DNA from: Octopus vulgaris
Taxonomy: Eukaryota
DNA length: 64,000 nt
Assembly: GCA_951406725.2 (NCBI GenBank)
Contig: OX597818.1
Location: 77,872,001 to 77,936,000 of the forward strand
Direction of reading: 5' to 3'
A program made the translations under genes and the position numbers. A model generated the notes under the pieces. It made no database searches. It was not told the DNA's origin and saw only the letters and a program-made list of their open reading frames with translations. Position 1 is the first letter of the stretch, and the number at the start of each line of letters is the position of its first letter. Positions 40,929 through 53,895 of this stretch are shown here, piece by piece.

Positions 40929-41072
40929 CTTTATTTAAAGCAGCAGAAAATTCAACAAAACCTGTTACTCTGAGTTTCCAGTTGCCGTTCATCGGCAAAA
41001 GCTGTCCGATGAACGGCAACGGGAAACTCAGAGTAACAGGTTTTGTTGAATCTTCTGCTGCTTTAAATAAAG
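40929..41072. repeat. Near-perfect 67-bp hairpin containing a minimal hammerhead (41002-41039), inserted in (TA)n
   Basis: Arms 40929-40995 / 41006-41072; ctgt-CCGATGA-a-cgGCAAcg-g-GAAAC-TCAGA-GTA-acag. Confidence 0.8.
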
Positions 41073-42184
41073 CATATTACTCTACCACTGGTATTTGAGT
41101 ACTCTTTTTTCCACCTTGTTTCACATTTATGTGTTTACTCCGGTATATATATATATATATATATGTAAAATTATGTGTGTGTGTCTGTGTCTATTTGTTC
41201 CCCATTACCGTTTGATAACCGGTGTTGGTGTCTGTACGTCCTCGTAACGTAGCCGTCTGACAAAAGCAAAAGAGACTGTTAGAATAAGCACCAGGCTTTA
41301 CGAAAAATGATAAGTACTTGCATCGATACGTTCGACTAAAATTCTTCAAGGTAGTGCCCCAGCATGGCCGCAGTCTAATGACTAAAGCGAGTAAGAAAAA
41401 AATGTCAAAGGAAACATAGACTGTTAAATAGGACTAAAAAGTGGTAAAGTTGTATAGTTTAATTATCTGGAAATTCATAGGAAGTTGTATAACTTATGAT
41501 ATATATTTTTACTTCCTATTTCTACAGCTTGTAGATTTCCTGTTCAAAATACTAAAAATATATGACTCATTTGACAGCTTCATTGAGTTTTCTCTTTGTT
41601 CTGATTTCAAAACTGGATTTATCTCTATTTGTTAGTTCTGTGGGAAAGTTAATTCGTCTGAGGAGTGTTGATAGTGTATAAGTACATATGATCTTTGTGA
41701 CCTAGCTGAAACGTATAAAAAAATTAAAAGATACACACACACAAACATACTATATATATATATATATATTTTCATTTATGCGCCCTTTTCAAGCCTAGCT
41801 GGGTGGGACGCCAGTCCATCGCAGCGATACTCAAGAAACAGGAAGAAAGAGTGAAAGTTGGGACGAAAGAGTACAACAGAAGTCACCACCACCCCCAGCT
41901 GGAGCCTCGTGGAGCTTTAGGTGTTTTCGCTCAATAAACACACACAACGCCCGGTCTGGGAATCTAAACCGCGAGTTCGCTGCCCTAACCACTGGGCCAT
42001 TGCGCCTCCATATATATATATATATATATATATATATATATATATATATATATATATATATATATATATATATATATATATATATAACGGGAAGCTTTAT
42101 GAAAATAAACAAAAGACGAAGGCAGGTGGAAAACAAACGAACAATTGTATTAGTATGGCGCTCAGGAAATATAAATAAAACAAG

Positions 42185-42222
42185 TCTTTAACGTTTCGAG
42201 CCTACGCTCTTCAACAGAAAGA
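42185..42222 (-). ncRNA. Minimal hammerhead-like motif in the pLTR (second copy 46739-46776)
   Basis: tcttt-CTGTTGA-a-GAGC-gtag-GCTC-GAAAC-GTT-aaaga; palindromic ACGT stem III; non-canonical core (U at A6). Confidence 0.6.
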
Positions 42223-42703
42223 TACACAGAGAGAAAAACACAGAAAGAAGGAGAGAAAAAAATGCGTGCAGTAGCTAACGAATCAACATGGCGATCTGAT
42301 TTCGGCCAGAGGTCAAAGATCAAACATGAGACGCGAGAGCGAAATAAGGGGAGATAATAGGGTTGATAAATGGGTTGAGGGACCAGCTAAAAGTGCGTGG
42401 GAGGGGTCTGGATGTGTGTATGTATAGGGTTGGTGTATGTATTAGTATGTATAAGGGTGTGTGTGTGTGTGTGTGTGTATGAGAGAGTATTAGTGCGTAA
42501 GATTGGTCTGGACGTGCGTATGTATGGGGTTGGTGTATGTATTAGTATGTATTAGTATGTATTAGTACGTATTGGTATGTATAGGTGTGTGTGTGTGTGT
42601 GAGAGAGAGTATAAGTGCGTATGCGGGGTCTGGACGTGTGTATGTATAGGGTTGGTGTAAGTATTAGTATGTACTAGTATGTATTAGTACGTATTAGTAT
42701 GTA

Positions 42704-45700
42704 TTAGTTGGTGTGTGTATTAGTATGGCACATCATATGTGATGTGATGTGTAAAGTCATGTGGTGTAGTGAGGAGAAGAGGGGGAGGGGGGAGAAGAGG
42801 GGAGGGGGAGAAGAGGGGGGAGAGAAGGGGAGGGGAAGAAGAGGGGGAGGAGAAGGGGGGAGAGGAGAGGATGGGGGAGAAGGAAGGGGATGAGGGGGAT
42901 GAAGGAGGAAAGAGGGAGAGGGGGAGAGAGAAGGGGAGAGAGGGAGTGAGGGAGCAGAGGGAAGGGGAAGAGGGAGGGAGAAAGAGGGAAGAAGGGAAGG
43001 GGAGTAGGGGTGAAAGGATGAAGGACTGAAGAAGTAGGGGTCGGGGGAGAAAGGATAGGTGAGGAGGGGGAGAGGGGGGTTAGATGAGGAGGGGGGAGAG
43101 TTGAGACCAAATGGCGTATAAGAGCGAAGAGAGAAGATTAATTCCTGTTCACGGCGCAAACGGGAATCCGGATGGCCTCTGTGTAAGGACAAACCGAACA
43201 CAGATAGGTGTTGCAAGGAGTGACCGGTGGAGCGGAAATGGCGTGAGACCGGTGTGTCGTTCGCAAGGTGGATGTCACGAAGGTGTTCCGCGAACCGGTC
43301 AGCCAAGCGGCGTCCCGTTTGTCCGATGTACAAGGAATTGCAGAGAGAGCAAGAGATGCAATAGATAATATTGCTGGAGGTGCAGGTGAAGGAGTGGATG
43401 ATGGGATAGGGTCGATGGTGGGTGCTAGTGAGGCGGGTGGTGTTGGAGAGGTAAGGGCAAGTGCGGCAACGTGGGCGGGAGCAGGGGAACGAGCCGGGTT
43501 GGGAGGTAGGGTCAGGGAAGGAGCTATGGACCAAAAGGTCTCGAAGGTTGTGGGCTCGTTTGAAAGAGGGGAGGGGTCGGTTAGGGAAGAGGTGTGAAGT
43601 GGACGGGTCGGACTGGAGATGACGGAAAGCTCGAAGAATGGTGCGTTGGAGACGTAGGGTCGTGGGGTGGTAAGTGAGGGGAAAAGGGAGGCGGGAGACT
43701 ACAGGGCGGGTTCGGGGAGAGAGAGCAGATACACGGTCCACGGACCGTGCTCTGGCAAGGGCGGTGTGGATAGTGGTGAGGGGGTATCCACGTAGGGTGA
43801 AGTGGTGAGCCATACGTTGAGACTGAGTCTCAAAGTCATGGTCGTCACTACAGAGCCTACGTAGACGGAGGAATTGGGAATAGGGGATGGAAAGCTTGGT
43901 GTGTTCTGGGTGGGAGGAAGAGAAGTTGAGGTATGAGTGTGAGTCTGTGTGTTTGTAGTGAATGGAGGTGGTAAGAGTGGAGTGAAGAATGCTAACCGAA
44001 ATATCGAGGAAGGAGACAGAGGTGTTGGAGATAGTGGAAGTGAAGTGGAGGGCTGGATGGAAAGATTGGACGAAAGAGAGGAAGGAATCTAGATGTTCGC
44101 GGGAGAGTGAGGTGGCACCGATAATGTCGTCAATATAACGACCATATAGTTCAGGAGTGGGACCAGTGAAATTAGAGAATATTTGGGCCTCAACATAGCC
44201 AACGAACAGGTTCGCATAGTTGGGGCCCATTCGCGTTCCCATGGCCACTCCCGAGACCTGATGGTAGAACTCGCCCGCGAACGAGAAGCAGTTCAGAGTA
44301 AGGACAAGTTCGGCCAGACGAATGAGTGTGGAGGTGTCAGGTACAGGGTTAGAGCGGAGGTCAAGAAAGTGTCGAAGGGCCTGCAGTCCTTCGTGGTGAG
44401 GGATAACAGTATAGAGGCTTTGGATGTCCATAGTAAAAAGGATTTTGGAGGAGCCGGGAGGAAAGGAGAAAGAGTTGAAAAGCCGGAGAGCATGGTTGGT
44501 ATCGTGGATGTGGGAGGGAAGAGATGCCACTAGGGGGGCAAGGACACGGTCGAGGTATTTAGAGATGAGCTCCGTGGGGCAGTTACAGGCGGAGACGATG
44601 GGGCGGCCAGGGTTGTTGGGTTTGTGGATTTTGGGGAGGAAGTAAATGGTGGGGGTACGTGGGGTTCGCACAATTAGGTTGGATGCGGTGCGGGGGAGAC
44701 GGGAGGACGAGATGAGGTCTTGGACAGTAGAGGATACCGTCTGTTGGTAGCTACGTGTGGGGTTAGAGGGCAGAGGGGAATAGAAGGAGGTGTCATTGAG
44801 TTGGCGGAAAGCCTCGGCCCTATAGAGGTCCGCGCGCCACACCACTACAGCTCCACCCTTGTCAGCCGGTTTGATGATAATGTCAGCGCGCCGTTGGAGG
44901 GAACGAAGAGCCAAGAGCTCAGCCGGGGAGATGTTGAGGCGGCGTTGGCGCCTGGAGAAGTTGAACCGCTCCAATGCACGCTGACAAGCGCCCGCGAAAA
45001 GATCCACTGCTAGGATCTGGCCAGGGGCAGGCGTCCACGGGGATGGTCGGCGGCCCAGGCCAGTGAAGCAGTCGTCCTCTTCGTTGGGTGTGGGTGGCGA
45101 GTCGTGGTAATGCGCACCCAACCGGACACGGCGCACAAAGCTGTGGACATCAACTCGCGTCTGGAATTCCTTACAGGATGGAGTGAGGGGGATGAAACGC
45201 AGACCCCTACCAAGGACGGAGCGTTCAGCCGCAGAGAGGGGAAGATCGGGGGGAATGGTAACAACAGACGGAAGTGGAGAAGGGGTGGATGGAATAGAAG
45301 TAGGAGGGGTGGTAGGTCTCGGGGAGGTCTGAGGGGGAGGGATTGGAGAGGTGTGTGGGGGGTGGTTGGGCGGGGCAGTAGGGTTAGGTGTAGGTGGATG
45401 GAGCCTAACGGGAGGGGGAGAAGGGGTTGTAGGGAGGGGCAGTGGGGTTAGGTGTGGGTGGATGGAGCCTATCGGGAGGGGAGAAGGGTGGTGGAGGAGT
45501 TGGGGTAGTGGCGTCGGGTAGGGTGGAATGGAAGAGTGATTGGAGTTTACGAAGTTTGGTATCAGAAAGAAATTGATGGAAGAGTTGATTCAAATGGATA
45601 ATGAAGCGTAGCGTGTTTGGAGCATAGAGAGGCGGCAGAGAGGAGAAGAAGGTGGAGAAAGCAGGAGGAAGAAGGCGGTTGATGGCATGTAGTTTGGAGA

Positions 45701-53357: not shown

Positions 53358-53565
53358 GGTAAAACCGTGTAGCAAACCAAATGGCGGTGCCCCAGCATGG
53401 CCACAGCTCATTAGCTGAAACTGGAAAAATCAAAATCAAAATCAAATCATATATATTATTATACTTGGGGATGCTCATATTTTGCCAATTAAACACCCAC
53501 ACTGAATGTTTAGTCTTTACTTCAGCGTTATTGATATTGTTGTTGTTATTATTATTATTATTATT

Positions 53566-53787
53566 ATTCAGTAGTTTTATTTTTATTTTTATAGCGTGCT
53601 TTCACTTCACTACCGAGCGCAGCTCTGTGTGCCTTGGGTATGTGCTGTGATTTGTTGTGATGCTCTGATGGTTATTGTATGGAAAGTGTTCTGCGTAGGA
53701 TGTGGGCAGTGCCTAGTAGTGCAATTTTCTGTATGTTATATGTGTTTGTAAGTCCTGGTGTTTTTGTTATGTATTTGTCTGAATATT
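53566..53787 (-). mobile_element. R4/Dong 3' end in (TAA)n (same family as 18279-18900)
   Basis: Near-identical to 18690-18900 in reverse complement. Confidence 0.85.
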
Positions 53788-53852
53788 TAAAAAAATTTTT
53801 TTTTTATTATTATCATTATTATTATTATTATTATTTATTTTTTTGTTTCTTT

Positions 53853-53895
53853 GTCAAAATTCTTTCGTCACACATCCTGTGACCTCTTCAGCGAC
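53853..53895 (-). ncRNA. Hammerhead-like motif
   Basis: Minus strand: gtcg-CTGAAGA-g-GTCACA-ggatg-TGTGAC-GAAA-gaattt-tgac; strong stem II, weak stem III. Confidence 0.5.

What the first reader, a model, noticed from the sequence alone, without database searches (positions are those of the whole stretch)
40929..53895. System hypothesis: an autonomous Neptune PLE plus several hammerhead-bearing mini-elements share (TA)n targets
Seen: within ~13 kb there is a near-intact PLE with hammerhead-like pLTRs and four sequence-unrelated hammerhead motifs. Those at 41002, 48002 and 49404 lie in inserts bounded by (TA)n or AT-rich tracts; 53853 lies beside a (TTA)n tract. More occur at 898, 3182, about 4027 and 32823. 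Most have self-complementary stem III (ACGU, ACUCGAGU, ACAUAUGU, ACUCAGAGU). Inference: PLE RT/GIY-YIG mobilises many ribozyme RNAs in trans into TA microsatellites, recognising shared RNA structure rather than sequence.
Basis: partly seen in the sequence, partly recalled or inferred. Interest (0 to 1): 0.75.

Follow-up and report, generated by a model that had tools for sequence, protein, structure and literature searches.

The report
Penelope elements and hammerhead retrozymes, mixed
This stretch holds a young Penelope-type jumping gene, stubs of other Penelope-type genes and protein-free repeats with predicted self-cutting RNAs, mostly ending in TA microsatellites; the repeats fit a known class (retrozymes) and were likely pasted in by other Penelope enzymes, not by the family next door.

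Summary
The PLE (42087-47431) and most hammerhead motifs are real, and TA targeting holds: in an unbiased 800-kb genome sample, 16 of 19 hammerhead sites have (TA)n within 300 nt downstream, against 19.5% background. The single-system reading fails. Three of the eight motifs are 3' stubs of coding PLE families: 41002 (shown) and 32823 of Hydra-type elements, 53853 probably of another PLE. Five (48002, 49404, 898, ~4027, 3182) belong to tandem non-coding families (352, ~497, ~429, ~483, ~331 nt) that fit non-LTR retrozymes. The four well-sampled ones insert as back-to-back arms, three with two fixed 3' ends mapped. The window's Neptune-type family shows one 3' end and no such arms (0 of 26 junctions; 0 of 146 sites), and this copy is frameshifted. 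Two other young coding families (Hydra-type; a distant Neptune-type lineage) share the two-arm footprint and are the likelier drivers. No homology links retrozymes to any sampled PLE end, so structure-based recognition stays open. Retrozymes and their proposed PLE dependence are published; this scan noted them repeatedly on other DNA of this genome. Cleavage, circles and mobilisation are untested.

The parts
42087..47431 (-). Neptune-type PLE 'P': 5'-truncated 5' pLTR, 5' UTR, ORF, 3' pLTR, between (TA)n tracts
   Evidence: 880 candidate places for the pLTR; 150 of 150 listed EN matches 99-100% identical
42704..45989 (-). RT + GIY-YIG ORF, split by a 1-nt frameshift in a Pro-rich repeat near 45400-45590; DKG, CX4CXXC linker and CCHH-type EN motifs
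46641..47431 (-). 5' pLTR (5'-truncated)
42087..42895 (-). 3' pLTR, ending at the family's single fixed 3' end about 103 nt after the predicted cleavage site
42185..42222 (-). minimal type I hammerhead, CUGUUGA core, ACGU stem III
46739..46776 (-). same hammerhead in the 5' pLTR
40929..41143 (+). Element A: two-armed, extremely 5'-truncated stub of a coding Hydra-type PLE (short arm 40929-40995 inverted, long arm 40996-41143); variant CCGAUGA core
   Evidence: 93.6% to the end of coding copy L407
47805..48211 (+). Element B: about 1.1 units of a 352-nt tandem non-coding monomer (retrozyme), one hammerhead at 48002-48046, (TA)n on both sides
49356..49712 (+). Element C: 5'-truncated piece of a ~497-nt tandem monomer (retrozyme), hammerhead at 49405-49462, (TA)n at the 3' end
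53453..53936 (-). Element D: 3' end of a decayed element, probably a GIY-YIG PLE; hammerhead at 53853-53895; tail interrupted by another retroelement fragment at 53578-53788
200..1036 (.). Element E: back-to-back arms of a ~429-nt tandem monomer (retrozyme), hammerheads near 898 (+) and 265 (-)
3033..3390 (+). Element F: old (66-82%) copy of a ~331-nt tandem hammerhead repeat, decayed motif at 3182
3740..4223 (.). Element G: back-to-back arms of a ~483-nt tandem monomer; the junction near 4020 lacks the CUGANGA half of the ribozyme
32476..32913 (+). Element H: 3' stub of an older Hydra-type PLE family, damaged hammerhead at 32819-32864, (TA)n at the 3' end

Best explanation
The region is a pile-up of independent insertions, most of them ending in TA microsatellites: one frameshifted copy of a young Neptune-type PLE, 3' stubs of other coding PLE families, and copies of non-coding tandem hammerhead repeats (retrozymes) that were likely reverse-transcribed in trans by PLE enzymes other than the window's family. 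Shown: A is the 3' end of a young Hydra-type PLE; B, C, E and G are tandem non-coding monomers that often insert as back-to-back arms, and in B, C and E the arms end at two fixed points of the unit; the window's PLE family has one 3' end and no back-to-back arms. Inferred: a GIY-YIG nuclease cuts both strands of (TA)n, and each nicked strand primes reverse transcription at its own internal site 100-290 nt downstream of the ribozyme, as shown in vitro for a Poseidon PLE (PMC11167929); a tandem transcript or a ribozyme-released circle gives the multi-unit arms. The likely drivers are the two-armed families: the 727-aa Hydra-type family (ends about 70 nt apart) and a 753-aa Neptune-type lineage 'Q2' (ends 47 nt apart, close to B's 45). 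Co-location reflects a shared target, not one system.
For: A: coding copy L407 has two 99.6% identical arms that end at the same two points as window A; a CxCX5C linker and Hydra-like RT core lie upstream in L301/L302; the EN search gave 12,439 candidates and many intact 727-aa frames. Tandem periods: B 352 in 26 of 30 loci, C 488-498 in 8 of 25, E 398-433 in 15 of 20, G 465-485 in 6 of 20, F 331 in 2 of 20. Colinear similarity upstream fades within about one unit for C, E and G, and the few PLE protein matches in these flanks are single loci not shared between copies. Ends after the predicted cleavage site: B +170/171 (18) and +215 (7) of 30 TA junctions; A +37/38 (29) and +107/108 (32); Q +60/61 (14) and +125 (7); C +245/246 (18) and +145-147 (3) of 29; Q2 +98 and +145. 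Two-orientation loci: B 8 of 24, A 27 of 49, Q 4 of 25, C 8 of 25. P: 45 of 47 TA junctions at +100 to +103; 0 of 26 visible 5' junctions inverted; 0 back-to-back pairs in 146 EN sites against 18 in 130 for the Hydra-type search (Fisher p 7e-7). TA test. Compensatory changes in stems I-III across C and its relatives.
Against: The driver is assigned by footprint only; no retrozyme aligns with any sampled PLE end (highest z 3.4 of 30 pairs, and that was E with P). The footprint could be set by the RNA template rather than the enzyme. The spacing of C and two sampled families (about 100 nt) matches none of the coding families I sampled. Loci are the best-scoring 40 per search, biased to young, full copies. 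Naiads (TA-targeting, listed for Octopus in PMC8557442 File S1) were not searched. D's coding partner rests on a decayed motif (tblastn E 0.18). Whether both arms copy one RNA molecule was inconclusive. TA adjacency is not PLE-specific: an APE-type LINE (50012-53446) and SINEs also abut TA tracts.
Confidence: 0.68

Rival explanations
1. One reading: the window's Neptune-type family mobilises the retrozymes in trans, and the two-armed footprint comes from the short or circular template.
For: P is young and abundant, overlaps in age with B (98-100%), targets (TA)n, and intact ORFs over 1000 aa exist.
Against: P never shows a second end or back-to-back arms, even in short truncated copies, while long linear Hydra-type and Q2 elements do, so a circle is not needed for the footprint. 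Three motifs are not mini-elements. The window copy is frameshifted.
Confidence: 0.12
2. Each tandem family is a detached pLTR array of its own coding PLE that I did not sample, as proposed for Xenopus (Li et al. 2026), so recognition is by cognate sequence.
For: Three of eight motifs did resolve to coding families once longer copies were read; the genome holds many PLE families.
Against: B, C, E and G close into short repeating units, with no shared ORF next to 95 loci; no homology to six sampled PLE ends. A-type stubs were only resolved by a second search, so rare coding partners could be missed.
Confidence: 0.14
3. The repeats spread by DNA-level routes (slippage, recombination between TA tracts, rolling-circle DNA) or by a TA-targeting LINE, and the ribozymes are passengers.
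For: TA tracts are dense (12.6 per 10 kb in the sample) and an APE-type LINE also sits in TA.
Against: Fixed 3' ends with variable 5' truncation, strand-specific TA enrichment (16 of 19 sites downstream, 4 of 21 motifs upstream) and the same two-end footprint as coding PLEs.
Confidence: 0.06

Closest known systems
Metazoan non-LTR retrozymes (Cervera and de la Pena 2020, PMC7229834; passages seen)
   Same: Tandem, AT-rich, protein-free units of a few hundred nt with one type I hammerhead each; mussel units are 350-390 bp; PLEs proposed as the mobilisers.
   Different: C and G units (483-497 nt) are longer than the 150-450 bp range quoted; the passages seen mention neither microsatellite targets nor inverted arms (0 occurrences of 'microsatellite' and 'inverted'); expression and circles were shown there and not here.
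Retrozymes as non-autonomous PLE derivatives (Li, Clavereau and Pollet 2026, 10.64898/2026.07.22.740005; parts 1-3 of 5 read; supplements closed)
   Same: Co-occurrence with PLEs, monomers to multimers, proposed use of PLE enzymes.
   Different: There 24 of 57 Xenopus families were homologous to known elements, nearly all PLE ends; here five monomers align with none of six sampled PLE ends. They did not assign a driver by insertion footprint; 1 of 9 tested elements cleaved.
Hydra clade PLEs, including Hydra-1_Obim (Craig et al. 2021, PMC8557442; section 11, passages and File S1/S2 rows seen)
   Same: Families of A and H: C-terminal GIY-YIG without CCHH, CxCX5C linker (seen for A), hammerhead at the 3' end, (TA)n targets.
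   Different: The two fixed ends about 70 nt apart and frequent back-to-back arms are not described for Hydra in what I read.
Neptune clade PLEs with minimal pLTR hammerheads (PMC8557442; Cervera and de la Pena 2014, PMC4209133, part 1 of 4 read)
   Same: P: RT then CX4CXXC linker then CCHH-type GIY-YIG, direct pLTRs, minimal hammerhead with palindromic stem III and an unpaired base before stem II.
   Different: CUGUUGA core; one 3' end with no optional tail and no inverted arm in my sample. No phylogeny was run, so Nematis is not excluded.
Poseidon PAc of Anolis (Frangieh et al. 2024, PMC11167929; parts 1-2 of 4 read)
   Same: Internal initiation at two adjacent RNA sites, both DNA strands cut and extended, AT-rich target; explains two fixed ends.
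   Different: Tail of 30-40 nt against 45-100 nt here; PAc insertion in vitro did not need ribozyme cleavage; trans templates were not covered in the parts read.

Membership tests
Non-LTR retrozyme (B, C, E, G, F) | Short tandem unit, one type I hammerhead per unit | tested here: met
   Periods 352, ~497, ~429, ~483, ~331. Descriptor passed in B 29 of 30, C 20 of 25, E 6 of 20, F 2 of 20 loci; G 0 of 20, though complete cores are visible in L342, L350, L354.
Non-LTR retrozyme (B, C, E, G, F) | No protein coding, no attached RT/EN ORF | tested here: met
   No shared colinear ORF in 1.5-kb flanks of 115 loci; scattered PLE hits were single loci. Rare coding partners not excluded.
Non-LTR retrozyme (B, C, E, G, F) | Dispersed, many copies | tested here: met
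   Candidate places: B 2892, C 2182, E 2175, G 500, F 523; 40 scored each.
Non-LTR retrozyme (B, C, E, G, F) | Self-cleavage of the RNA | not testable with these tools
   Only structure and covariation.
Non-LTR retrozyme (B, C, E, G, F) | Expressed as linear and circular monomers | not testable with these tools
   No raw RNA reads were available.
Neptune PLE (P) | RT followed by C-terminal GIY-YIG with CCHH | tested here: met
   (GIY-YIG hit below curated cut-off; motifs read from the translation).
Neptune PLE (P) | CX2-5CXXC zinc-finger-like linker | tested here: met
   CX4CXXC before the EN; definition from PMC8557442.
Neptune PLE (P) | pLTRs with hammerhead | tested here: met
Neptune PLE (P) | RT phylogeny inside Neptune, not Nematis | not tested
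Neptune PLE (P) | This copy autonomous (open ORF) | tested here: not met
   Frameshift, 727 against 726 nt in open copy L066; the family has long open frames elsewhere.
Hydra PLE (families of A and H) | CxCX5C linker, EN without CCHH, C-terminal EN | tested here: met
   A: L301, L407. H: EN C-terminal half only, tblastn E 5e-7 and 2.5e-4; linker not seen.
Hydra PLE (families of A and H) | (TA)n insertion and 3' hammerhead | tested here: met
Hydra PLE (families of A and H) | RWK and DKT motifs; phylogeny | not tested
   The N-terminal part of a full copy was not fetched.
   P one end, 0 of 26 inverted; B two ends, 8 of 24 two-armed (Fisher p 0.0014).
   No alignable homology; no common fold was evident in single-sequence folds of the end regions; a short motif near the distal end in five families is post hoc.

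The most novel reading that the evidence does not exclude
This genome runs several PLE enzymes in parallel on (TA)n, and each leaves its own footprint: one end and one arm for the window's Neptune family, two ends and back-to-back arms for Hydra-type and Q-type families. At least four unrelated retrozyme families are copied only by the two-armed enzymes, which find two internal start sites by RNA shape with no sequence homology; the spacing of the ends pairs passenger with driver (B 45 nt with Q2 47 nt; E about 66 nt with Q 65 or Hydra-A about 70 nt) and predicts an unfound family with about 100-nt spacing for C. This would name the enzymes that mobilise animal retrozymes.
Probability: 0.3. 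Interest if true: 0.65.

Novelty: new member of a known kind. Interest (0 to 1): 0.42.

Why it matters
Which reverse transcriptase copies animal retrozymes is still only proposed (PMC7229834; 10.64898/2026.07.22.740005). This genome has young retrozymes and at least three young, intact PLE families with different insertion footprints, so the question becomes a small matrix of enzymes against RNAs in an assay that already exists (PMC11167929). By extrapolation from 19 sites in 800 kb, tens of thousands of intact hammerheads sit beside TA microsatellites here. The element classes themselves are known, and the 13-kb cluster is not a functional unit.

Tried and rejected
Rfam scan: dominated by microsatellite false hits; no hammerhead reached a gathering score. 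The repeat finder on the whole window was swamped by simple repeats; only the inverted pairs were useful. A as a stand-alone hairpin or MITE: rejected, loop junctions differ between copies and longer copies run into an ORF. A as the pLTR of the Neptune-type PLE beside it in L055: rejected, that 220-nt insert matches the neighbouring copy at 95% and other places at 88% or less, a one-off capture. D as a (TTA)n-targeted element: rejected. Family E's row was dropped because the reference ran into (TA)n; E's ends come. C's two-orientation count (22 of 25) was inflated by an internal palindrome and was redone (8 of 25). G was not; its arms and ends were read. Shared sequence between P's tail and the other families: highest z 1.2 of 14 pairs. 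Both arms copied from one RNA: B monomers identical in 17 of 31 same-arm pairs, 11 of 27 opposite-arm pairs and 299 of 1118 different-site pairs, with opposite arms differing more on average; inconclusive. Single-sequence folds did not give the hammerhead fold as minimum-energy structure, as expected for dimer-type motifs. Paper searches found no paper on cephalopod retrozymes or on footprint-based driver assignment; the library lacks most subscription papers and bioRxiv supplements were closed. Not done: Naiad search, RT phylogeny, protein structure prediction.
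Full report
Setting. The window lies on contig C5 of a 2.8-Gb genome with 227 contigs. An octopus-like host is my inference from genome size and the element types; no call names it. I label the PLE 'P' and the hammerhead-bearing inserts A (41002), B (48002), C (49404), D (53853), E (898), F (3182), G (~4027) and H (32823).

The PLE. A minus-strand element spans 42087-47431 between (TA)n tracts. It has an RT, a weak GIY-YIG match, DKG, a CX4CXXC linker and CCHH-type motifs, which fits Neptune or Nematis as defined in PMC8557442. 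The two pLTRs differ by 1 mismatch and 22 gap positions, and each holds a minimal hammerhead with a CUGUUGA core. The ORF is frameshifted in this copy: L066 reads through with 726 nt over a stretch where the window has 727; a third copy, L080, has 726 but is also broken. The family is young: all 150 listed EN matches are 99-100% identical and some frames exceed 1000 aa.

The motifs. A strict descriptor gave 2 canonical hits (B, C) against 0.03 in 60 shuffles. A looser one passes B, C, D and both pLTR motifs, and fails the window copies of A, E, F, G and H. Their families contain passing copies except G, whose long bulged stem II my descriptor does not model. Across C and three relatives from the random sample, stems I, II and III show compensatory changes, which supports selection on the fold.

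TA targeting. I took 80 stretches of 10 kb at fixed intervals on contigs C1-C18. The descriptor found 21 motifs with score 10 or more against 0.3 per shuffle, at 19 independent sites from about a dozen families. 16 of 19 sites have (TA)5+ within 300 nt downstream of the predicted cleavage site, against 19.5% of background positions; upstream it is 4 of 21 motifs (p 2e-9 and 0.6). So the enrichment is real and strand-specific. It is not unique to PLEs: an APE-type LINE at 50012-53446 and several SINE ends also abut TA tracts. Hammerheads are common genome-wide, so a cluster in one TA-rich 13 kb needs no special link.

What each insert is. B: 2892 candidate places, the best at 98-100%, in arrays with a 352-nt period. 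C: 2182 candidates, 93-97%, period about 497. E: 2175, about 429. G: 500, about 483. F: 523, old, 331 in 2 of 20 loci. None shows a shared ORF in its flanks. These fit non-LTR retrozymes (PMC7229834). The window copies of B and C each hold one ribozyme and could not release a monomer by double cleavage on their own. A looked like a mini-element in the first search. Longer copies extend about 1.5 kb upstream into an endonuclease with a CxCX5C linker and a Hydra-like RT. That EN retrieves 12,439 candidates, with many identical-scoring copies and 727-aa open frames. One such locus, L407, has two arms that end exactly like window A. H extends into a Hydra-like EN in L318, L321 and L328. D extends colinearly 500-600 nt upstream in 3 of 6 extended loci, two of them reaching a decayed GIY-YIG-like frame; this is motif-level evidence only (E 0.18).

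Footprints. Counting TA junctions after the predicted cleavage site: B ends at +170/171 (18) and +215 (7) of 30; C at +245/246 (18) and +145-147 (3) of 29, and 9 opposite-strand pieces end at the second site; A at +37/38 (29) and +107/108 (32); Q, a distant CX4CXXC-type PLE family at 26-30% identity to P, at +60/61 (14) and +125 (7). In two-armed loci one arm usually takes each end. E's inverted arms end about 66 nt beyond its main end. P differs: 45 of 47 junctions lie at +100 to +103. With an internal query, 28 of 30 copies ended there, one read on into a tandem copy and one was internally deleted. None of 26 visible 5' junctions is inverted. Among 150 listed EN matches there are 0 back-to-back pairs for P and 18 for the Hydra-type search. 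Older P-like pLTRs also end at the equivalent place. A young family related to Q (62% identity, 753-aa frames) has back-to-back pairs and ends at +98 and +145. All these counts come from the best-scoring loci, not a random draw.

Sequence or structure. Post-cleavage regions of 15 families show no similarity to P (z at most 1.2) or A (at most 1.5). Five monomers against six PLE ends gave z at most 3.4. A short A(C/T)CCT motif lies 8-20 nt before the distal end in C, G and three sampled families; this is post hoc. Recognition by structure is therefore allowed but not shown.

Mechanism. Shown: anatomy, copy structure, ends, TA bias. From the literature: a PLE protein cuts and extends both strands and starts at two internal RNA sites, giving the optional tail (PMC11167929); inverted pLTRs, tails and trans mobilisation through pLTR sequences are known in rotifer PLEs (PMC3846280, passages); Hydra and Naiad elements favour (TA)n (PMC8557442). 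Inferred: retrozyme RNA is copied by a two-site PLE enzyme from both nicked strands, and P is not that enzyme. Untested: cleavage, circles, expression, enzyme identity.

Verdict. Earlier notes of this scan describe two-armed retrozymes many times in this genome; they are leads, not support. Interest 0.42; new member of a known kind.

Noticed in passing
L055:1199-1645 (G000:C17): An A-type two-armed insertion carries about 220 nt copied from the 3' UTR of a neighbouring Neptune-type PLE (95% to the neighbour, at most 88% elsewhere); looks like a local template switch.
   Followed up: partly
L236-L260 and L408-L410, 3' ends: Hammerhead core variants at the 3-8 pair: family Q appears to have A3:U8 and Q2 U3:A8 in place of C3:G8; read by eye. 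U3:A8 is described in PMC4209133.
   Followed up: no
window 41009-41015; loci L031-L060, L261-L280: Many A copies have CCGAUGA or CCGACGA cores (22 of 23 descriptor hits), while the young coding copy L407 has CUGAUGA.
   Followed up: partly
families C, G and L159, L181, L229: A(C/T)CCT motif 8-20 nt before the distal 3' end; C, L159 and L229 have ends about 100 nt apart, with no matching coding family found.
   Followed up: partly
window 50012-53446 (+): APE-RT LINE with one in-frame stop at 52173 and a CCCH-like motif upstream, lying between TA tracts; a similar 5' end follows TA in L259.
   Followed up: no
window 53578-53788 and 18401-18896: Two 98% identical 3' fragments in (TAA)n; the ORF at 18401-18802 resembles a restriction-like endonuclease of R4/Dong elements (recalled; no Pfam hit).
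   Followed up: partly
window 42704-43100 (-): The P ORF reads about 130 codons into the low-complexity 3' pLTR before it stops.
   Followed up: no
window 46535-46580 (+): Two splice-donor-like GGTAAG motifs lie on the strand antisense to the PLE 5' UTR.
   Followed up: no
window 35200-36523 (-) and 56553-57495: A second LINE-type RT fragment and mariner-like transposase pieces.
   Followed up: no
L023 and window 31377-31698 (-): A 70% diverged B-like repeat next to a B array in L023, and a second H-like stub in the window.
   Followed up: no
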